Assembly: GCA_963666975.2 (NCBI GenBank)
Contig: CAXVYR010000003.1
Coordinates: forward strand, 448,001-512,000
Direction of reading: 5' to 3'
DNA length: 64,000 nucleotides
From: Terriglobia bacterium
GTDB taxonomy: Bacteria > Acidobacteriota > Terriglobia > 2-12-FULL-54-10
Shown: positions 16,229 through 24,019 of the stretch, piece after piece
Numbering within the stretch: position 1 is the first letter of the stretch
How the letters are laid out: each line of letters starts with the position of its first letter
Program-made: the position numbers and the translations under genes
The notes under the pieces: generated by a model
What the model was told of the DNA's origin: nothing
The model's input: the letters and a program-made list of their open reading frames with translations, nothing else
Database searches by the model: none

Positions 16229-17338
16229 CTACTGGAATAGAAAGTAGAGTGCGGAGCCCAGCAGGCCTCCCATCGGCAGTGTAAATAGCCAAGCAAGCAG
16301 AATCTCGCGGACTTTCCTTCCGTTGGTGCGATCGGGTTGCGACAAGCCGACTCCGAAGATGCTGCCAACGGCAGTGTGGGTTGTGGAGACTGCCAGACCC
16401 AAAGGAGAAGCGAGTGTGACCAGCGCCGCCGTTACCAGGTTTGCTCCGGTGCCCTCTACCGGCTGGATGTCGGTTACGTCTTCTGAAACCGTCTTCGCCA
16501 CGCGACGAACCGCCAGCGTGCCTCCCAGCAGCATGGCAACGGCCACCCCGGCAAACGCCGTTCCGGTGGCAACACCCAGAGCAGGCAGCAGCAGGAGGGC
16601 GGCGATCTTCGGCGTATCATTCATGCCCCGGGAAAAACTGATCAGCCCTCCGGAAAACCAGTGTAACACCTCGTTCACATCGGTGCGCCATTTGGCTCCC
16701 GGCGAGTGTACGGCGCAGGCCGCTGCGGTGTCGATTGTGATCGACGGAAGAAGATCTCCAGGCGTTGGTTGAGAGGGCATCGCCAGTGTTTCTGCGCCGA
16801 CTAGGGCCGGGGACATTTGTGCAGGAGTCACGCAGATACAGGTTCGTGTCACGGAGAAAATACGGCGCAGCAGGGGAAACGTGGACCACGTCAAGCCCAT
16901 AGCCGCCAGGGGAGTGAGAAGCAGCGGCAGGAATACCGTCATTCCCAAAACTCCCGGATGAAAATTGCTCCACCCTCCGGCTAGCAGAGCCGTTCCTGTC
17001 AACGCACCCGCTAAAGCGTGCGTGGTCGAAATAGGCATCCCAATTTTCACTGCCACAAAAACGGTGAGGGCAGCTCCGCCCCCTACGGCCACAAGGAAGG
17101 ACTCGGCGTCTATGCCGGAGTGGATCAGCCCGGCACCGGAAAAAATAGGCAGCAGCTTGGCGGCAAACCATATCCCTGCAACGGAACCCAGGGCTGTCCA
17201 GACGGCCGCCCAGGTGACGGCGCGCCCAAAACTGTAGTAGCGGCTCTGGCGGAGCGTTGCCACTCCCTTAAAGTTATCGTTGGCCCCGTTGGAAAAAGCC
17301 AGAAAGAATACAGCCGCCAGTAAGATGAAGTCCATCAT
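16229..17338 (-). CDS. Inorganic phosphate transporter (PiT family)
   Basis: NGANDNFKG, PISTTH, GMNDTPK, VSTTH. Confidence 0.88.
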   Translation of the reverse strand: MMDFILLAAVFFLAFSNGANDNFKGVATLRQSRYYSFGRAVTWAAVWTALGSVAGIWFAAKLLPIFSGAGLIHSGIDAESFLVAVGGGAALTVFVAVKIGMPISTTHALAGALTGTALLAGGWSNFHPGVLGMTVFLPLLLTPLAAMGLTWSTFPLLRRIFSVTRTCICVTPAQMSPALVGAETLAMPSQPTPGDLLPSITIDTAAACAVHSPGAKWRTDVNEVLHWFSGGLISFSRGMNDTPKIAALLLLPALGVATGTAFAGVAVAMLLGGTLAVRRVAKTVSEDVTDIQPVEGTGANLVTAALVTLASPLGLAVSTTHTAVGSIFGVGLSQPDRTNGRKVREILLAWLFTLPMGGLLGSALYFLFQ

Positions 17339-17710
17339 CCGTGTACCTTGCTTAATTTCGACTACTGTTCATAGCCTTTGCCTGCTTCTCAAATCGTAAC
17401 GCACGCTCGTAGAAAGAGTTAAATAGCCCGCCGCTGGAGGAAGAGGAAGGTGAAACGGAAATCGCAAAAAATGCCACTTTTATGGTCTCATAAGCGCTGT
17501 TCCGCCGCAACTGTGCAGCCGGCCGGTCTGCGGAGACACCCATTAGATAGCTTGGAGAGCCTCCAGGGTGCAAAATACTTTCTTCCTTCCACTACCGCCG
17601 GCGCGAAATGCCGGTGCGCTTGTCCGTTTCGTCTGCTTAGAGGTTGTGATAGGCTGAAAGGTCCCGGCGAAACAGGAATTTTCTCGCAACGGACACAAAC
17701 GGATTGGCTT

Positions 17711-18625
17711 ATGCCCGAACTCCCGGAAGTCGAAAACGTCGTGCGCAGCGTGAAACCGCTGGTATTGGGGCGGCGGATTACGGGCGCCGAGTGGCGCTGG
17801 TCCGGCGCGGATAGCAAGGGTCAGCCCGTGGCGCCGCGAATATTTCAGACCCCGCTTCCGGAGTTTCACAAGGCGCTCTGCGGCGCGCGGATTGAGGATG
17901 TTTCGCGGTATGGAAAAAACATCGTGTTCCATCTCAGCCACGGTACTCGGGGAAGTGTCCCGTTATTTTTTTTGGTTCATTTGGGAATGACTGGGCGGTT
18001 GACCTGCGAGGGCACATCGGAATTTCTGAACAAGCATACACATCTGGTCCTGAGTCTGGATGAGCCGGGCCGCTGGCTTCATTACACCGATATTCGCCGC
18101 TTCAGCCGCTTACGCGTTACCAACCATCTCCAGCACGAGCTGGGCGGGTTGGGGCCGGACCCCCTGGAAGTTTCCTTTGAAGAATTTTTTCACCTGCTTC
18201 GCTCCCGGCGCGCGATGCTGAAGAGTCTTCTACTGAACCAGCACTTTTTGCGCGGGATGGGCAATATCTATGCGGATGAAGCTCTCTTTCGAGCGGGCAT
18301 CCACCCTGCCGCTTGCGCCTCCCGGCTGACCCGAAAGCGCGCCCTCGGACTTTATCAGGGAATACGGGAAATTTTGGGGATCGCCATTGAACAGGGCGGC
18401 TCCTCCATCGCCAATTATGTGGACTCTCAGGGACGCCCTGGAAAATTTCAACTGCTGCACCAAGTTTACCGCCGTACCGGGCAGCCTTGCTTCCGGTGCG
18501 GCGCACGCATCCGCAAGATGTTGATTGCGAGCCGGAGCACTCATTTTTGCCCCCGTTGTCAGCGGGAAACGCGCAGAGTAACCCTCCGGAGCAAATCCGT
18601 GGTGGAAAGGAAAAAGATACAGTGA
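17711..18625 (+). CDS. mutM: Formamidopyrimidine-DNA glycosylase
   Basis: N-terminal MPELPEVE (start 17711), HLGMTG, GMGNIYADE, C4 zinc finger. Confidence 0.96.
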   Translation: MPELPEVENVVRSVKPLVLGRRITGAEWRWSGADSKGQPVAPRIFQTPLPEFHKALCGARIEDVSRYGKNIVFHLSHGTRGSVPLFFLVHLGMTGRLTCEGTSEFLNKHTHLVLSLDEPGRWLHYTDIRRFSRLRVTNHLQHELGGLGPDPLEVSFEEFFHLLRSRRAMLKSLLLNQHFLRGMGNIYADEALFRAGIHPAACASRLTRKRALGLYQGIREILGIAIEQGGSSIANYVDSQGRPGKFQLLHQVYRRTGQPCFRCGARIRKMLIASRSTHFCPRCQRETRRVTLRSKSVVERKKIQ

Positions 18626-19587
18626 AACGGTTTTCTGTAGGGGCCGACCTGGGTGGAACCAACCTCCGCATTGCTGCCGTGGATGAATCGGGGAAGGTGT
18701 TTGAAAAAATCTCGCTGGCCACGCGCGCACAGCAAGGGCGCGATGCGGTGGTTCGCGAGCTGTGCCGGGCCATCAGGGAACTCACAAAAAAGCAGGAAGG
18801 GGCCGGTTCCTTCGCAGGGATCGGCATCGGGATTCCAGGTATCATCTACTTGAAGACGGGGACTGTGCGTCAATCCCCGAACCTGCCGGGGTGGGAGAAT
18901 TATCCCGTGCGGGATGAGATTGAATCGCTGCTGGGGGTTCGTGTATTTTTGGAGAATGATGCGAATGTTGCCGCCCTCGGAGAAAAATGGATCGGCCTGG
19001 GGCGGGACGTCAGCAGTCTCTGCATGCTGACCTTGGGCACAGGGGTCGGCGGCGGGGTGGTATTGGACGGAAAAATCTGGCACGGCTTTCTGGGCATGGC
19101 GGGCGAACTGGGACACATGGTTGTCGCCGAAAATGGTCTGGCGTGCCGCTGCGGCGGCCAAGGGTGCCTGGAGATGGAGGCTTCCGCAAGCGCAATTGTG
19201 CGCCAGGGAGAAGAGCTATTGGCTGCGGGACGCAGCCCGGCTCTGGCCGAGGCGCGATCCAAGGCCGCCAAACTGACGGCAAGGATGATCTACGAGACTG
19301 CAAAAGCAGGGGACCCGGCTTCCAAAGCGATCTTTGAATCGGTCGGGCGATACCTGGGAATTGGAATTGCCGGCCTGACGAATGCCCTGAATTTGCCGTT
19401 GTATGTGATTGGCGGGGGCGCGGCTGCGTCCTGGGACCTGTTTGCTCCGGCGATGATGGAGGAAGCACGCAAGCGGTCTTTTATTTTCCGCGAGGGAAGC
19501 ACCCGCATCGAGAAAGCCGTTCTGAAAGGAGATGCAGGACTCTGCGGGGCAGCCTATCTGCCCCTCCAAGTCTCCGCAGAGCAATAG
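18622..19587 (+). CDS. ROK family sugar kinase (glucokinase)
   Basis: DLGGTN, LENDANVAALGE, GTGVGGG, GELGH, CRCGGQGCLE; GTG start overlaps the mutM stop. Confidence 0.92.
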   Translation: MKRFSVGADLGGTNLRIAAVDESGKVFEKISLATRAQQGRDAVVRELCRAIRELTKKQEGAGSFAGIGIGIPGIIYLKTGTVRQSPNLPGWENYPVRDEIESLLGVRVFLENDANVAALGEKWIGLGRDVSSLCMLTLGTGVGGGVVLDGKIWHGFLGMAGELGHMVVAENGLACRCGGQGCLEMEASASAIVRQGEELLAAGRSPALAEARSKAAKLTARMIYETAKAGDPASKAIFESVGRYLGIGIAGLTNALNLPLYVIGGGAAASWDLFAPAMMEEARKRSFIFREGSTRIEKAVLKGDAGLCGAAYLPLQVSAEQ

Positions 19588-19644
19588 CAACGCCCGAGTC
19601 GGCTGCGAGATTCCGGCAACGCTGATTACGCAGAAACAGAACTC

Positions 19645-20949
19645 ATGAAATCCGAACACCTCCAACTGTTGAAAGACGCCATGCAGCGATTCGCCGGCCT
19701 GCCGCCGGAGGTGTTTTTCAAAGAGGACCTGCTTCGCCTCGGGCTTTCACTGGGTTCCTCTGGTTCTCCGGAGGGCTCCTATCAGAAAAAATCATATTTT
19801 ATTTTTTCTTTTGACCGAACGCCGATTCGTGAAATGCAACAGCAAGAAAACCTGCGCGCGCCGGAAGAGATTGCATTGATGGGCGGACCCTTCGGATTGC
19901 GCCGGACGATCGTTTCTGTGCGCCTGAATCCGGCGTCACCTTACCGCCTGGAGGGAACCGGTGACGGCATTGCTCTGCTGCTGGAAGGCGAGACGCTTTG
20001 CCGCGTGGAGTTTCCTCCCGAGCCTCCCCACTATCGCAAACGCCTGAGCAACGGTAAATCCGTATCGGAGATTGCCCCGACCATCGAGTGGGGCTATCTG
20101 ATTTATCTCACGGTTTTTCGGCGCTGCCAGTACGTGGGGTCAGCGCAAGAGTGCCAGTTTTGCGATATCAACAATAACTATGAACAGCAGCGGGCTGCTG
20201 GCCTTCCCTACACCTCGGTAAAGTCCGTGGAAGAAATATTGGAGGCGCTGGAAATCCTCGCCTCCACCGACACCCGCAGCAGGGCCTACACGCTGACCGG
20301 CGGCAGCGTCACCTCCACGCTGCGCGGCAAATCGGAGGCCGATTTCTATGTGCAGTATGCAGCGGCCATTGAGAAACGCTTTCCGGGAAAATGGATCGGA
20401 AAGGCTGTGGTGCAGGCGTTGCCGGAAGAGGATCTCCGGAAGTTTCACGATGCCGGCATACGCATCTACCATCCCAACTACGAAGTATGGGATGAGCGCC
20501 TGTTCGCGCTGCTGTGTCCCGGAAAGCAGCAGCACATCGGGCGGCAGAAATGGATGGACCGCATCCTGGCCGCGCGGGAGGTGTTCGGGGCTTCTTGTGT
20601 GATCCCGAACTTTGTCGCCGGAATTGAAATGGCGCGGCCTCACGGCTTTGATTCCGTGGATGACGCCATTCGCTCCACTGCGGAGGGTTTGGAGTTTTTT
20701 ATGTCTCAGGGAATCACCCCGCGCTTTACCACATGGTGCCCGGAGCCGACGAGCGAACTAGGGTCACAGGAACCCGCCCCGCTGGAATATCATCTCCGCC
20801 TGCTGGAAGTGTACCGCGATACAATAGAGAGGCATCGCCTGGACCCTCCGCCGGGTTACGGTCCCGCCGGCGCGGGGCAGGCGGTTTTTTCGGTTTCTTC
20901 TTTTATGGATGTTCTCCCCTCCGCTACGATGAGTGAAACGGCACAATGA
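19645..20949 (+). CDS. Radical SAM protein with non-canonical CX8CX2C motif
   Basis: CQYVGSAQECQFC at 20125-20163; TLTGG, HPNYEVWD, CPGK. Confidence 0.85.
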   Translation: MKSEHLQLLKDAMQRFAGLPPEVFFKEDLLRLGLSLGSSGSPEGSYQKKSYFIFSFDRTPIREMQQQENLRAPEEIALMGGPFGLRRTIVSVRLNPASPYRLEGTGDGIALLLEGETLCRVEFPPEPPHYRKRLSNGKSVSEIAPTIEWGYLIYLTVFRRCQYVGSAQECQFCDINNNYEQQRAAGLPYTSVKSVEEILEALEILASTDTRSRAYTLTGGSVTSTLRGKSEADFYVQYAAAIEKRFPGKWIGKAVVQALPEEDLRKFHDAGIRIYHPNYEVWDERLFALLCPGKQQHIGRQKWMDRILAAREVFGASCVIPNFVAGIEMARPHGFDSVDDAIRSTAEGLEFFMSQGITPRFTTWCPEPTSELGSQEPAPLEYHLRLLEVYRDTIERHRLDPPPGYGPAGAGQAVFSVSSFMDVLPSATMSETAQ

Positions 20950-21746
20950 CCCCGCCACTGTTGCGCGTTTCCGCCGTATCTTATCTGAACACGGCACCCC
21001 TGATCTGGGGGATGCTGCACGGACCCCAACGAGGCTATTTTGATCTGGACTTTACCGTGCCTTCAAAATGCGCCGACGCTTTGCGAACCGGACAGGCTCA
21101 GGCCGGCATCATGCCTTCCATTGAATACCAACGGATTGAAAATCTGAAAATTGTGCCCGGCCTCTCCATTTCCTCTTCAGGGCCTGTGCGCAGCGTCCTG
21201 CTGATATCCCGCTGTCCCGTAGGCCAGATTCAGAGCCTGGCGCTCGACACCTCCTCGCGGACATCTGCCTGTCTGGCGGAGATATTATTGAAACGTCACT
21301 ACAAAATTGCGCCCTCGCTCAAGCCAAGCGAGCCGAACCTCTCTGCGATGCTCCAAGAGTGCGACGCCGCCTTGGTGATCGGCGATCCCGCTTTGGCCTC
21401 GGAAATGCCCGGGCTTCACGTCCGCGACTTGGCCGAAGACTGGCACACGATGACCGGCCTCCCTTTCGTATTCGCGTTCTGGGCGGTGCGCAGCGAAGCG
21501 GCTTCTGCGGAACTGATCGCGCCTTTTCAGCAGTCGGCAGCCTATGGCCTGGAACACGTAGAGGAGATCGCTCAGTCGGAGAGCAAGCGGACCGGGTTGT
21601 CCGTCTCCCTGATCCGCGCTTATTTGACGGAAAACATTAAATTTTCTTTGGACGGGAACAACCTGCGGGGCCTGCAACAGTTTTATTCCCTGGCGCAGGA
21701 ACTGGGATTGACCAACGGCACCAAGCCATTGGAATTCATCGCTTGA
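20946..21746 (+). CDS. mqnA: Chorismate dehydratase (futalosine pathway)
   Basis: VSYLNTAPL, GPVRSVLL, SSRTS, LVIGDPAL, TGLPFVFAFW. Confidence 0.92.
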   Translation: MTPPLLRVSAVSYLNTAPLIWGMLHGPQRGYFDLDFTVPSKCADALRTGQAQAGIMPSIEYQRIENLKIVPGLSISSSGPVRSVLLISRCPVGQIQSLALDTSSRTSACLAEILLKRHYKIAPSLKPSEPNLSAMLQECDAALVIGDPALASEMPGLHVRDLAEDWHTMTGLPFVFAFWAVRSEAASAELIAPFQQSAAYGLEHVEEIAQSESKRTGLSVSLIRAYLTENIKFSLDGNNLRGLQQFYSLAQELGLTNGTKPLEFIA

Positions 21747-21798
21747 ACTGAACTGATGAACGGATTGCAACTTTTAATGTTGTTGGCGGAGGTGACCG

Positions 21799-22563
21799 GT
21801 GAAAAGAGAAATAGTTTTTGGATTGGCGGTTCTGGTGGGGATCATCTGGGGTGGAGGAAGCCTCCTCCGCGCCCAGCAGCCGCCGAACGCGAATCAACCG
21901 ATCAAAGCTGTGGTGTTCGATGCCTATGGAACGTTGTTTAACCCGCATACGGTTGTTCCGATTTCCGAGGAACTGTTTCCGGGGCACGGCGCCGAGTTGA
22001 GCAACATATGGCGCGCCAAACAACTGGAATACACATGGCTCCGCGGCTTGATGGGACAGTACGAAGATTTCTGGCAGGTGACCGAATCGGCCCTGTTGTA
22101 TGCCTGCAAGACTTTGAAGCTGCAGTGCGGGCCGTCCACGCACGAGCGGATGATGGAGTCCTACCTCAAGATCGACCCTTATCCGGAAGTCCGCCAAGCG
22201 CTCGGCAACCTCAGCGGCTACCGGCGGGCAATCCTCTCAAACGGCACACCGGACATGCTCCAGGCGGGGGTCCGGAGTTCCGGCCTCGATGGATTCCTAT
22301 CCCAAATCATCAGCGTGGACGAAGTAAAAACCTTCAAGCCCAATCCGCGCGTATACCAACTGGCAGTCGAGAAGCTCGGAGTCGAAAAGGGCGAAATTGC
22401 CTTCATCTCCTCGAATGCCTGGGACATCATCGGCGCAAAGGCGTTTGGTTTTTGGACCTGCTGGGTGAACCGCTCCGGAGCTACGATGGACGAAATGGGC
22501 TTCCGTCCGGATGCAACGGTCAGAAGCCTGGCGGATGTAGTGAATGTTCTGCCTGGCAGATAG
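21799..22563 (+). CDS. Haloacid dehalogenase type II with N-terminal signal peptide
   Basis: FDAYGTL, WRAKQLEYTW, LSNG, FKP, SSNAWD; hydrophobic leader after RBS GGAGG. Confidence 0.9.
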   Translation: MKREIVFGLAVLVGIIWGGGSLLRAQQPPNANQPIKAVVFDAYGTLFNPHTVVPISEELFPGHGAELSNIWRAKQLEYTWLRGLMGQYEDFWQVTESALLYACKTLKLQCGPSTHERMMESYLKIDPYPEVRQALGNLSGYRRAILSNGTPDMLQAGVRSSGLDGFLSQIISVDEVKTFKPNPRVYQLAVEKLGVEKGEIAFISSNAWDIIGAKAFGFWTCWVNRSGATMDEMGFRPDATVRSLADVVNVLPGR

Positions 22564-22633
22564 GCACGCCGCCTGACAGGAAAGCAGTGAGGACAGGGAA
22601 TTAGCCGCAAGCGGTTTCGCGCAGGCAGGCTCT

Positions 22634-24019
22634 TTACCCGCGGCGGCCCCGGATGCGACCCGCGCTGGGCGCGAACCCCTCGTAGTGCCGCATCAGCAGG
22701 TGAGACTCAATCTTGCTGACGAAGTCCATGGCCACGCCGACCACAATCAGCAACGAAGTGCCTCCGAAATAGAAAGTCACTCCGAGACCATCCAGTAAAA
22801 ATCGCGGGAAATTCTCATCGACCCATCCGCCCACATACGGGAGGTGGTGCAGATGGATCCCTGAGATCATCCACTCCGGAACCAGCGAGACCAGCGCCAA
22901 ATAACACCCGCCGACCAACGTTAAGCGCGTGAGGATGTTATTGAGATATTCCGCCGTGTTCTTGCCGGGCCGGATGCCGGGCACAAAACCGCCGTACTTG
23001 CGGATATTGTCGGCGATGTCATTCGGGTTGAAAATAATGGAGACGTAAAAGTAGGCGAAGAAGATGATGGCCGACACATAGAGCAGCGTGTACAGCGGCT
23101 CGCCCCAAGCCAGCGCCGCGAACAGACCTTGCAGGCGGGGACTCTCCGGCCCCATTAAGGCCAGCGTTTGCGGGAAGGTGAGAATCGAGGAGGCGAAGAT
23201 CACCGGCATCACGCCGCCCGCATTCACGCGAATCGGAAGGTGAGTGGACTGGCCGCCAAAGACCTTGCGTCCCACCATGCGGGTGGCGTATTGCACATTC
23301 ACCCGCCGCTCTCCCCTCTCCACCAAAACAATGCAGCCGACAGCCGCAATCATCAGGACCAGCAAGACGATCAACTGAACGAAACTCCATTCATTGGTGA
23401 CGAAAACTTTCGTCCACAGCTCAGCCCCGGCTCGCGGAAGGCCCACGACAATCCCGGTGAAGATCAGCAGGGACATGCCTTCGCCGATGCCGCGCTGCGT
23501 GATCTGTTCTCCCAGCCACATCACAAAGGTGCATCCGGCGGTGAGCGTCACAACGGTTGTGAACATAAACAGGGGACCGGGATCGTTGACAAAGCTTGAG
23601 CCCTGGAACGACTGCCGCTGGAGCGTCAGCGCGATTCCGAAGGATTGAAAAGCGCTGAGCACAACGGTCAGGTAGCGTGTGTAGAGGGTGATCTTCTGGC
23701 GGCCCATCTCGCCTTCTTTCCGCAGGCGGTCCAGATAGGGCCAGACGGGGCTGAGCAATTGCAGAATAATGGAAGCCGTGATGTAGGGCATGATGCCCAG
23801 GGCAAAGATGGTCAGCCGCCGGAAATTGCCGCCCGAAAAGATATCCACAAAGCCGAATACAGTGTCGCGATTGGCTTCAAAGAATTGTTGCAGCAGATCC
23901 GCGTTGATGCCGGGGGTCGGGACGTGGCCTCCCAGGCGAAAGACCGCCAGGATGGCCAGCGTAAAAAGAATGCGGTTGCGCAGCTCAGGGATGCTGAGGA
24001 TGTTGCGGATCGTGTTCAC
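22634..24019 (-). CDS. secY: Preprotein translocase subunit SecY
   Basis: IFALGIMPYITASII, WLGEQIT, GVMPVIFAS, VPGIRPG, FGGTSLLIVVGV. Confidence 0.97.
   Translation of the reverse strand: MNTIRNILSIPELRNRILFTLAILAVFRLGGHVPTPGINADLLQQFFEANRDTVFGFVDIFSGGNFRRLTIFALGIMPYITASIILQLLSPVWPYLDRLRKEGEMGRQKITLYTRYLTVVLSAFQSFGIALTLQRQSFQGSSFVNDPGPLFMFTTVVTLTAGCTFVMWLGEQITQRGIGEGMSLLIFTGIVVGLPRAGAELWTKVFVTNEWSFVQLIVLLVLMIAAVGCIVLVERGERRVNVQYATRMVGRKVFGGQSTHLPIRVNAGGVMPVIFASSILTFPQTLALMGPESPRLQGLFAALAWGEPLYTLLYVSAIIFFAYFYVSIIFNPNDIADNIRKYGGFVPGIRPGKNTAEYLNNILTRLTLVGGCYLALVSLVPEWMISGIHLHHLPYVGGWVDENFPRFLLDGLGVTFYFGGTSLLIVVGVAMDFVSKIESHLLMRHYEGFAPSAGRIRGRRG

What the first reader, a model, noticed from the sequence alone, without database searches (positions are those of the whole stretch)
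19645..21746. CX8CX2C radical SAM enzyme translationally coupled to mqnA: candidate alternative futalosine-pathway step
Seen: a 434-aa radical SAM ORF with CQYVGSAQECQFC whose stop overlaps the mqnA start (ATGA, 20946-20949). It does not look like the CofH/MqnC/MqnE family, and no other mqn gene is in the window. Known: MqnA makes the enolpyruvyl ether 3-[(1-carboxyvinyl)oxy]benzoate, and the radical SAM enzyme MqnE adds the 5'-deoxyadenosyl radical to that vinyl group. NikJ/PolH are radical SAM enzymes that form C-C bonds on enolpyruvyl-UMP. Inference: from memory this protein resembles a widespread uncharacterised family related to NikJ/PolH (not verified). It may be a non-orthologous MqnE replacement or may divert the MqnA product into a new nucleoside-aryl metabolite.
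Basis: partly seen in the sequence, partly recalled or inferred. Interest (0 to 1): 0.8.

Follow-up and report, generated by a model that had tools for sequence, protein, structure and literature searches.

The report
Likely stand-in for menaquinone enzyme MqnE
A highly conserved, uncharacterised radical-SAM enzyme with an unusual iron-sulfur motif sits fused end-to-start with mqnA and, by comparative genomics, most likely does the job of the missing vitamin K2 (menaquinone) enzyme MqnE.

Summary
A 434-aa ORF (19645-20949, +) carries CQYVGSAQECQFC (CX8CX2C). Its stop overlaps the mqnA start in ATGA (20946-20949).

The protein belongs to NCBIfam NF045502 'variant_rSAM'. Its AlphaFold model is a radical-SAM barrel (pLDDT 95). 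It is not a CofH/MqnC/MqnE-family member.

Its own genome (98.9% complete) has MqnA, MqnC and MqnD. It has no MqnE and no MenD.

- **Acidobacteriota sample (121 genomes):** of 86 with MqnA, 75 have MqnE, 10 have this enzyme, none has both and 1 has neither.
- **Gaiellales-type Actinomycetota:** the gene sits in an mqnA - X - mqnC row.
- **MqnE relics in carriers:** six Streptomyces species, Paractinoplanes bogorensis and one acidobacterium hold only an MqnE relic whose Fe-S cysteine motif is deleted or broken. The futalosine genes checked alongside are kept.
- **Streptomyces sample (151 genomes):** MqnE was lost or reduced to a relic in 9 of 86 carriers and in 0 of 65 non-carriers.

Best reading (about 0.7): a non-homologous replacement for aminofutalosine synthase.

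Main caveat: 75 of 86 Streptomyces carriers keep both enzymes, and no biochemistry exists. Kinship to NikJ/PolH is not supported.

This scan reached the same reading before on other DNA (e1-2704357). I found no paper on it.

The parts
19645..20949 (+). Gene for the 434-aa variant radical-SAM enzyme (candidate MqnE stand-in)
   Evidence: ORF. NF045502 at 189.3 bits against a cut-off of 125. AlphaFold model with pLDDT 95.1 and a radical-SAM barrel. Orthologues are 58-91% identical across four phyla.
20125..20163 (+). Codons for C161-x8-C170-x2-C173, the presumed [4Fe-4S]/SAM cluster motif
   Evidence: Sequence read. The three Cys are invariant in A1 (14 sequences) and in A2 (53 sequences down to 23% identity).
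20946..20949 (+). ATGA overlap of the rSAM stop and the mqnA start
   Evidence: One 201-nt contig of a metatranscriptome run (100% identical) spans 20790-20990 across it. This is a weak hint of co-transcription.
20946..21746 (+). mqnA, chorismate dehydratase
   Evidence: PF02621 at 181.6 bits. PDB 7AHR/2NXO chorismate dehydratase at E 7.5e-33. The genome's other PF02621 gene is MqnD.

Best explanation
The 434-aa protein is a radical-SAM enzyme of a distinct, very conserved lineage. It takes over the MqnE step of the futalosine route to menaquinone.

Proposed mechanism:
1. C161, C170 and C173 hold a [4Fe-4S] cluster that reductively cleaves SAM.
2. As in MqnE, the 5'-deoxyadenosyl radical adds to the vinyl carbon of 3-[(1-carboxyvinyl)oxy]benzoate, which the co-translated MqnA makes from chorismate.
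3. Rearrangement and decarboxylation give aminofutalosine, or an equivalent that MqnC and MqnD can use.

Shown here: the motif, the fold, the gene linkage, the phyletic pattern and the decay of MqnE in carriers.

Inferred: cluster binding, SAM cleavage, the substrate and the product.
For: **1. Own genome** (98.88% complete).
- MqnA is in the window.
- MqnD matches PDB 2CZL at 2.4e-53.
- MqnC scores 422.5 bits on TIGR03699.
- UbiD and UbiX homologues are present.
- All four TIGR03700 matches are accounted for as CofH, MqnC, CofG and BioB.
- No MenD reaches the cut-off.

**2. Acidobacteriota sample** of 121 genomes at >= 90% completeness.
- Variant in 10, from 9 families. MqnE in 88. Both in 0.
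- Of 86 with MqnA: 75 have MqnE only, 10 have the variant only, and 1 has neither (G160, 410 contigs).

**3. The 80 best related loci.**
- Their genomes have MqnE over the cut-off in 22 of 80.
- The five best sub-cut-off hits I tested are MqnC, at 441-489 bits.
- Three of five well-assembled carriers have a single CofH-family gene.

**4. Gene linkage.**
- mqnA lies within the flanks in 18 of 80 loci and is directly adjacent in 9.
- Gaiellales-type loci read mqnA - X - mqnC. In L053 the downstream gene scores MqnC 294 against MqnE 183, and the neighbours are MqnA by PDB.
- UbiX, UbiD and Rieske/cytochrome b genes lie nearby.

**5. Natural loss experiments.**
- In six Streptomyces species the mqnE orthologue is an open frame that lacks the CxxxCxxC stretch.
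- It is only 42-69% identical between five of the species, and 95% between the sixth pair, which is near-identical. The variants of the same species pairs are 84-96% identical, and 100% in that sixth pair.
- Paractinoplanes bogorensis has an independent in-frame deletion of about 145 aa.
- Acidobacterium G026 has a relic with Pro at the first Cys.
- Four of the six Streptomyces and P. bogorensis keep two PF02621 genes and have no MenD. All seven have an MqnC-level match.

**6. Streptomyces sample of 151**.
- MqnE is gone or a relic in 9 of 86 carriers and in 0 of 65 non-carriers.
- Three carriers with a broken variant copy all keep MqnE.

**7. Co-occurrence with the pathway.** PF02621 is found in 53 of 54 non-Streptomyces carriers tested.
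Against: - There is no biochemical or genetic test of any member.
- In Streptomyces 75 of 86 carriers keep an intact MqnE, as do four of five Actinoplanes-group carriers and one Gaiellaceae genome. The two genes are therefore not simply exclusive, and the variant may have a role of its own there.
- Streptomyces neighbourhoods of the variant hold unrelated housekeeping genes.
- Most acidobacterial carriers do not have it next to mqnA.
- Related genomes are not independent. The nine Streptomyces losses may be few events. The Fisher values (7e-7 and 0.01) overstate the evidence.
- The structure searches give no specific likeness to MqnE. It is tied with LipA, HydE and PylB at Z about 16 and ranks 50th in Foldseek.
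- How adenine would be removed is unclear in this genome. There is no MqnB, and MTAP is the only PNP-family gene.
- Three of the genomes counted are unpublished: G128 (a carrier), G103 and G480. The counts keep their shape without them.
Confidence: 0.7

Rival explanations
1. It belongs to menaquinone synthesis and uses the MqnA product, but with chemistry or a product different from MqnE's. Examples would be another adduct or a condition-specific route. This would define a further branch of the pathway.
For: - The family is not homologous to MqnE beyond the superfamily.
- It has an extra N-terminal region of about 150 aa and a conserved C-terminal tail.
- 75 of 86 Streptomyces carriers keep both enzymes, which plain redundancy does not explain well.
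- MqnB is missing here.
Against: - MqnC and MqnD are kept in carriers, so the product must still feed them.
- MqnB is rare in Acidobacteriota whichever enzyme they have: 7 of 121 over the cut-off.
Confidence: 0.13
2. It has a function outside menaquinone synthesis, and the link with mqnA and with MqnE loss reflects lineage and chance. Some other, unseen enzyme replaces MqnE.
For: - Most loci (62 of 80) show no mqnA nearby.
- Streptomyces contexts are unrelated genes.
- It coexists widely with MqnE in Streptomyces.
Against: - There is zero overlap with MqnE in 121 Acidobacteriota, while all 10 carriers have MqnA.
- mqnA - X - mqnC rows occur in another phylum.
- MqnE decayed independently in three lineages, always in carriers.
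- 53 of 54 carriers tested have PF02621 genes.
Confidence: 0.1
3. It replaces MqnC (the cyclase), not MqnE.
For: Both are radical-SAM steps. In Gaiellales-type genomes the CofH-family neighbour is divergent: 294 bits against the MqnC cut-off of 428.
Against: - In every case tested the retained CofH-family gene scores best as MqnC.
- It is the MqnE orthologue that decays.
Confidence: 0.03
4. It is a NikJ/PolH-type enzyme of nucleoside-antibiotic synthesis acting on an enolpyruvyl nucleotide.
Against: - PolH has a canonical CxxxCxxC motif (PMC5365060).
- None of the neighbours I annotated is an antibiotic-cluster gene.
- The gene is single-copy in S. cacaoi NBRC 12748 and in this genome.
Confidence: 0.02

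Closest known systems
MqnE, aminofutalosine synthase (TIGR03700; Pedobacter heparinus structures 6XI9/6XIG)
   Same: - Radical-SAM barrel.
- Genomic partner of mqnA and mqnC.
- Present in futalosine-pathway genomes exactly where MqnE is absent or decayed.
- It is the top row of the fold search, but tied with others (Z 16.3, rmsd 3.5, 240 aligned).
   Different: - No sequence-model match.
- CX8CX2C instead of CX3CX2C.
- No CofH_C domain.
- An extra N-terminal region of about 150 aa.
- It is therefore an analogue, not a member.
NCBIfam NF045502 'variant_rSAM' and the RadicalSAM.org Megaclusters 4-6-x with CX8CX2C motifs
   Same: It scores 189.3 bits against a cut-off of 125. The motif type matches what PMC9477430 lists for Megaclusters 4-6-1, -3, -5 and -6 (passage read).
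   Different: These are sequence groupings with no assigned function. I did not map this protein to a megacluster number. The orthologue group here is a tight subset: one full-length representative at 50% clustering, then relatives at 40% identity or less.
HydE, BioB, PylB, LipA and ThiH (full-barrel radical-SAM enzymes)
   Same: They are the best structural neighbours: Foldseek E 4e-8 to 1e-5 and VIA Z 14.7-16.2.
   Different: Sequence identity is 10-15%, the substrates differ, and the auxiliary-cluster cysteines of BioB, LipA and HydE were not looked for. C291 and C365 are invariant only among the orthologues.
NikJ/PolH (octosyl acid phosphate synthase)
   Same: Radical-SAM chemistry on an enolpyruvyl ether. 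A long N-terminal region precedes the cluster motif.
   Different: PolH has a canonical C225xxxC229xxC232 motif and lies in an antibiotic gene cluster. Kinship was not tested by sequence.

Membership tests
Radical SAM superfamily | Three-cysteine motif for the SAM-binding [4Fe-4S] cluster (canonically CX3CX2C) | tested here: inconclusive
   The canonical spacing is absent. A CX8CX2C triad is invariant in 53 sequences. Such variants are accepted in the superfamily (PMC9477430). Cluster binding itself was not tested.
Radical SAM superfamily | (beta/alpha) barrel core fold | tested here: met
   The model has pLDDT 95.1. There are 168 PDB matches at E <= 0.001, and all 35 rows printed are radical-SAM enzymes. 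VIA Z reaches 16.3.
Radical SAM superfamily | Pfam PF04055 at its gathering score | tested here: not met
   26.3 bits against 29.5.
NCBIfam NF045502 variant_rSAM | HMM score over the curated cut-off | tested here: met
   189.3 bits against 125, covering residues 64-391.
MqnE / CofH / MqnC family (TIGR03700, TIGR03699, TIGR00423) | HMM match, CX3CX2C motif and CofH_C domain | tested here: not met
   No match at E <= 1 in NCBIfam. No PF19288. The motif spacing differs.
MqnE (by function) | Converts 3-[(1-carboxyvinyl)oxy]benzoate plus SAM to aminofutalosine | not testable with these tools
   Only comparative genomics bears on it.
MSMEG_0568 family (TIGR04043) | HMM score over the cut-off | tested here: not met
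   37 bits against 303.7.
NikJ/PolH | Canonical CxxxCxxC at about residue 225 and a setting beside an enolpyruvyl transferase (NikO/PolA) | tested here: not met
   The motif differs. The adjacent genes are a ROK kinase, mqnA and a HAD hydrolase. Direct sequence comparison was not done.

The most novel reading that the evidence does not exclude
The CX8CX2C family is more than an isofunctional spare. It is a mechanistically distinct second entry from the MqnA product into naphthoquinone synthesis. It could make a different adduct, use a different reductant or tolerate oxygen differently. Alternatively, in organisms that keep both enzymes, it could make a separate aryl-nucleoside metabolite. This would explain why more than half of the sampled Streptomyces keep it beside MqnE.
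Probability: 0.2. Interest if true: 0.85.

Novelty: new variant of a known kind. Interest (0 to 1): 0.75.

Why it matters
- **Annotation.** The futalosine pathway is the only menaquinone route in many bacteria and is pursued as an antibiotic target. Its radical-SAM step has been thought to rest on one enzyme family. A second, unrelated enzyme for that step would fill a 'missing MqnE' gap in many Acidobacteriota, Gaiellales-type Actinomycetota, and some Planctomycetota and Gemmatimonadota. Pathway-completeness calls from genomes would change.
- **Function.** It would assign a function to a large orphan radical-SAM family with an unusual cluster motif.
- **Enzymology.** It would give a second scaffold for the rare reaction in which the 5'-deoxyadenosyl radical is built into the product.
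- **Evolution.** The Streptomyces species with both enzymes, one enzyme, or a decaying MqnE form a ready-made series for studying non-orthologous gene displacement.

Tried and rejected
- **PDB by sequence:** no hit for the rSAM at E <= 1.
- **Crude ORF calling** by longest frame picked antisense frames in high-GC loci. I redid it with a GC3 rule.
- **Unbiased samples around other carriers gave too few carriers for a contrast:** 2 of 81 in the class of G010 and 1 of 71 in the phylum of G068. I did not follow them with MqnE searches.
- **MqnB as a discriminator:** it is over the cut-off in only 7 of 121 Acidobacteriota whichever enzyme they have, so it is uninformative.
- **Promoter and terminator scan of 17300-22800:** 0 promoter-like sites, and 9 terminator-like sites against 6.9 expected. 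Nothing usable.
- **Looking for a PolH-like paralogue in S. cacaoi with the broad profile A2:** only the one orthologue was found.
- **Literature.** These searches found no paper proposing or testing an alternative aminofutalosine synthase:
  - futalosine / MqnE / radical SAM / missing
  - aminofutalosine synthase / chorismate dehydratase / Acidobacteria
  - aminofutalosine from 2019 on
  - mqnE / mqnA / mqnC / absent
  - CX8CX2C / MSMEG_0568
  - SCO4494

  Subscription journals are mostly outside that library, and supplements were closed.
- **Protein Atlas:** only 'radical SAM protein' or 'hypothetical' clusters.
- **RNA run X22:** nothing laid.
- **Tree:** this is the quick IQ-TREE run, because the careful search did not finish. 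Three rows with a stop in the translated span (L014, L047, L066) were kept.
Full report
**What is there.**

One search lists an ATG-started ORF at 19645..20949 (+, 434 aa), followed by an ORF at 20946..21746 (+, 266 aa). One search shows the shared ATGA at 20946-20949. It also shows the codons for C161-x8-C170-x2-C173 at 20125-20163.

The flanking genes on the same strand are a ROK-family kinase (18487..19587) and a type II HAD hydrolase (21799..22563). Neither has an evident link to quinones. The consensus scan gave no useful promoter or terminator.

One 201-nt contig from a metatranscriptome run, 100% identical, covers 20790-20990. It bridges the junction with 156 and 41 bases on either side. 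This is a weak hint of co-transcription, because DNA carry-over cannot be excluded.

**What the two proteins are.**

ORF2 matches Pfam PF02621 at 181.6 bits. PF02621 covers both MqnA and MqnD. By PDB sequence search ORF2 is MqnA: chorismate dehydratase SCO4506, 7AHR/2NXO, E 7.5e-33.

ORF1 gave these results:
- It reaches only 26.3 bits on Pfam Radical_SAM, below the 29.5 cut-off.
- It scores 189.3 bits on NCBIfam NF045502 'variant_rSAM', against a cut-off of 125.
- It scores 37 bits on the MSMEG_0568 model, against a cut-off of 303.7.
- Nothing from the CofH/MqnC/MqnE models hits at E <= 1.
- No solved structure matches by sequence.

With a 53-sequence alignment, AlphaFold gives a confident model (pLDDT 95.1, pTM 0.94). 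Foldseek finds 168 PDB chains at E <= 0.001, and all 35 rows printed are radical-SAM enzymes. They are led by MgmA, HydE, LipA and BioB, with MqnE 6XIG at rank 50. The Foldseek-independent search puts MqnE 6XI9 first (Z 16.3, rmsd 3.5, 240 aligned). It is tied within 1 Z unit with LIAS, HydE, LipA, PylB and NifB. So ORF1 is a full-barrel radical-SAM enzyme with no specific structural likeness to MqnE.

The CX8CX2C triad is invariant in 14 orthologues. It is also invariant in 53 sequences reaching down to 23% identity. C291 and C365 are invariant only among the orthologues.

The RadicalSAM.org paper lists Megaclusters 4-6-1, -3, -5 and -6 as having CX8CX2C motifs, without a function (PMC9477430, passage read).

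**How widespread and how conserved.**

The word-indexed search found 2764 relatives at E <= 0.001 among 7999 scored candidates. Of the best 120, 119 are 61-91% identical and one is 57%. Where they carry a name it is 'radical SAM protein', 'hypothetical protein' or a bare locus tag. They come from Acidobacteriota, Gemmatimonadota and Planctomycetota.

At 50% clustering the orthologue group collapses to one full-length representative (64% identical). The next full-length relatives are at 40% or less. There are 765 hits at E <= 0.001.

In one-genome-per-species contigs, 505 of 596 candidate stretches were confirmed. The best 80 (L007-L086) come from Acidobacteriota, Streptomyces, Actinoplanes, Gaiellales/Thermoleophilia, Planctomycetota and Gemmatimonadota.

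I built a quick maximum-likelihood tree of 81 orthologues and 5 paralogues. The careful search did not finish.
- The orthologues are monophyletic (support 95).
- There are several acidobacterial clades and a Planctomycetota pair.
- One Actinomycetota clade (support 100) also holds the two Gemmatimonadota sequences.

**Own genome.**

The genome is 98.88% complete, in 4 contigs.
- It has two PF02621 genes: MqnA in the window, and MqnD (PDB 2CZL/3A3U, 2.4e-53).
- The MqnE model finds four places, none over the cut-off. They are CofH, MqnC (TIGR03699 at 422.5 bits against a cut-off of 428.1), CofG and BioB.
- MenD is not found over the cut-off; the best hit is 65.5 bits.
- UbiD-like (51% identity) and UbiX-like genes exist elsewhere.

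So the futalosine route is the only visible menaquinone route, and its MqnE step has no canonical enzyme.

MqnB is not found either. The only PNP-family gene is an MTAP. However, MqnB is over the cut-off in only 7 of 121 Acidobacteriota, so this gap is general and says nothing about ORF1.

**Phyletic pattern in the phylum.**

I searched the same evenly drawn sample three times. It held 121 Acidobacteriota genomes of at least 90% completeness, G000 included.
- The orthologue profile A1 at E <= 1e-60 matched 10 genomes from 9 families.
- MqnE at E <= 1e-112 matched 88, of which 84 are over the curated cut-off.
- The window's MqnA at E <= 1e-15 matched 86.

Set arithmetic on the printed rows gives:
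- No genome has both the variant and MqnE.
- Of the 86 MqnA genomes, 75 have MqnE, 10 have the variant and 1 has neither (G160, 410 contigs).
- 13 MqnE genomes had no MqnA hit with this single-protein query.
- 22 genomes have none of the three.

All nine sampled genomes of the window's own class have MqnE and lack the variant.

Fisher's exact value for variant against MqnE over all 121 is 7e-7. Relatives are not independent, so the nine families are the fairer count. One carrier (G128) and one MqnE genome (G103) are unpublished. Without them the pattern is the same.

**Are the carriers really without MqnE?**

Across the genomes of the 80 loci, MqnE is over the cut-off in 13 of 50 and 9 of 30. 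That is 22 of 80: 16 Streptomyces, 5 Actinoplanes and one Gaiellaceae.

The five highest sub-cut-off hits that I fetched are all MqnC, at 441-489 bits. Four are from Acidobacteriota and one from Planctomycetota. Three further lower hits are also best as MqnC (312-422 bits).

Five well-assembled acidobacterial carriers have either a single CofH-family gene (3 of 5) or that gene plus a CofG/CofH-like pair (2 of 5). The latter reading is inferred from its likeness to the pair I verified in G000.

In the Gaiellales-type genomes the second hit, of about 290 bits, lies in frames of 700-1400 aa. I take it to be FbiC, but this was not tested.

**Gene linkage.**

tblastn with the window's MqnA finds mqnA inside 18 of the 80 loci.
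- It lies 30-45 bp downstream in the two closest acidobacterial relatives (L007, L008).
- It lies 21-110 bp upstream on the same strand in L016, L036, L053, L073 and L084.
- It is divergent and adjacent in L078 and L081.
- It lies 1-8 kb away in nine others.

Two of these actinobacterial neighbours were checked and are MqnA, not MqnD (7AHR at 1.8e-27 and 8.3e-29, against 2CZL at 4.5e-5 and 8.2e-4).

In six loci a CofH-family gene follows the variant directly (cluster 26). The representative from L053 scores best as MqnC, 294.3 bits against 183.5 for MqnE. That gives the row mqnA - X - mqnC.

The same group of loci carries UbiX (13 loci), UbiD (12 loci) and Rieske/cytochrome b genes within 10 kb.

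By contrast, the Streptomyces neighbourhoods hold unrelated genes (RibD_C, BBE oxidase, YaaA, asparaginase, RsgA, Ada/AlkA). In the five acidobacterial carriers where both genes lie on one contig (G164, G188 and three of the loci genomes), they sit 1.2-2.1 Mb apart.

**Natural loss experiments.**

*Streptomyces, six species.* S. cacaoi, S. qinglanensis, sp. CA-250714, S. iconiensis, S. xiaopingdaonensis and S. sulphureus all carry the variant.
- In the four where both genes lie on one contig, the mqnE orthologue sits 25-45 kb from mqnC, against about 20 kb in a normal species.
- It is an uninterrupted frame, only 39-45% identical to a normal Streptomyces MqnE.
- The stretch holding CxxxCxxC is missing in all six (alignment).
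- Between five of the species these relics are 42-69% identical. They are 95% identical between S. xiaopingdaonensis and S. sulphureus, which are near-identical.
- The variants of the same species pairs are 84-96% identical, and 100% in that last pair.
- An intact MqnE from sp. ODS28, which groups with them on the variant tree, is 88.6% identical to the reference.

*Paractinoplanes bogorensis.* It has a different lesion: a 257-aa frame with an in-frame deletion of about 145 residues that removes the motif.

*Acidobacterial carrier G026.* Directly upstream of mqnC it has a gene that scores best as MqnE. The score is only 177.8 bits, and Pro stands at the first cluster cysteine.

Four of the six Streptomyces plus P. 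bogorensis were tested further. Each keeps two full-length PF02621 genes, and none has MenD at E <= 1e-20. Their MqnC-level matches are like those of normal relatives. These organisms therefore still depend on the futalosine route but lack a radical-competent MqnE.

**Streptomyces genus sample.**

I sampled 151 genomes of the genus. The variant is present in 86. MqnE is over the cut-off in 139. One of these, G480, is unpublished.

The 12 without a match at 1e-125 were re-examined:
- G353, the only non-carrier among them, has an intact gene that was reported as two stretches in one frame (530 bits).
- G458 has three pieces in different frames. This is either frameshifts or sequencing errors.
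- G483 has pieces in several contigs, at least one at a contig end.
- Nine have nothing or a relic: G004, G011, G365, G422, G424, G426, G428, G465 and G494. In G422, G424 and G494 the match starts at model position 80-86, as in S. qinglanensis (G005), one of the relics I read. I did not read those three sequences. G428 is a fragmented assembly.

So MqnE is lost or reduced to a relic in 9 of 86 carriers and in 0 of 65 non-carriers (Fisher 0.01; relatives are not independent).

Conversely, three carriers have a disrupted variant copy (G396 in two frames; G432 and G434 with one TGA each). All three keep MqnE.

This is what two interchangeable genes would look like. It also shows that most Streptomyces carriers keep both, which plain redundancy does not explain.

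**Association with the pathway.**

The miss is a 2.7-Mb MAG. Five of the genomes left out were covered.

**Interpretation.**

The simplest account of all this is that ORF1 is a non-homologous radical-SAM enzyme for the MqnE step. It would act on the enolpyruvyl ether made by the co-translated MqnA and feed MqnC and MqnD.

The chemistry is taken from what is established for MqnE: addition of the 5'-deoxyadenosyl radical to the vinyl group, rearrangement, then decarboxylation to aminofutalosine. This is my knowledge of that literature, not re-read here. Nothing here tests it.

I put 0.7 on 'does the MqnE step', somewhat less on 'same product', and about 0.13 on a different chemistry within the pathway.

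The replacement idea is supported. The NikJ/PolH recollection is not. No sequence test was possible.

After my own analysis I looked up earlier notes of this scan.
- One note (e1-2704357) had reached the same reading for a gene between mqnA and mqnC in another genome.
- Two notes (e1-2298949, e1-4886264) describe cluster-less MqnE or MqnC-like copies beside mqnA in Acidobacteria. They prompted.

These are not independent evidence.

The literature searches found no paper on such an enzyme. The library lacks most subscription journals, and supplements were closed.

**Verdict.**

The family is an orphan with a strong, testable functional prediction. Biochemistry and genetics are still needed.

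Noticed in passing
L087-L092 (six Streptomyces), L096 (Paractinoplanes bogorensis), L108:2107-3081 (acidobacterium G026): The mqnE orthologues have lost the CxxxCxxC motif, by deletion or by Cys-to-Pro change, yet remain open frames with conserved N- and C-terminal stretches. They may be decaying genes or may be kept for a non-radical role.
   Followed up: partly
G000:C4:1538047-1538769 (L094:1375-2268, minus strand): The genome has no MqnB and no MTAN. Its only PNP-family gene is an MTAP (TIGR01694 at 310.5 bits). MqnB is over the cut-off in only 7 of 121 Acidobacteriota. How adenine is removed from aminofutalosine in this phylum is open.
   Followed up: partly
Streptomyces genus sample: The variant radical-SAM gene is present in 86 of 151 sampled Streptomyces genomes, mostly beside an intact MqnE. 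Three copies are disrupted (G396, G432, G434), and those genomes keep MqnE.
   Followed up: partly
G043:C1:24079-25925: One Gaiellaceae carrier has a third PF02621 gene right beside its MqnE (435.7 bits). This is a second mqnA-mqnE pair in a genome that also has the variant.
   Followed up: no
L074 and L086 in the tree: The two Gemmatimonadota variant sequences nest inside the Actinomycetota clade (support 100), which suggests transfer between phyla. Only 1 of 71 sampled Gemmatimonadota genomes carries the gene.
   Followed up: no
G000:C4:1858.7-1861.2 kb (L001:50-2523): A CofG-CofH gene pair (FO synthase for coenzyme F420) is present in this acidobacterial genome. A similar pair appears in carriers G164 and G188.
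   Followed up: no
G000:C3:612234-613247 (L002) and C3:616.8-617.8 kb (L004): The genome's mqnC lies next to ORFs that look by eye like bioD and bioA (not tested). It is about 5 kb from bioB (TIGR00433 at 402.8 bits).
   Followed up: no
window 20790-20990: A 201-nt contig from a metatranscriptome run matches this stretch exactly and spans the rSAM-mqnA junction.
   Followed up: partly
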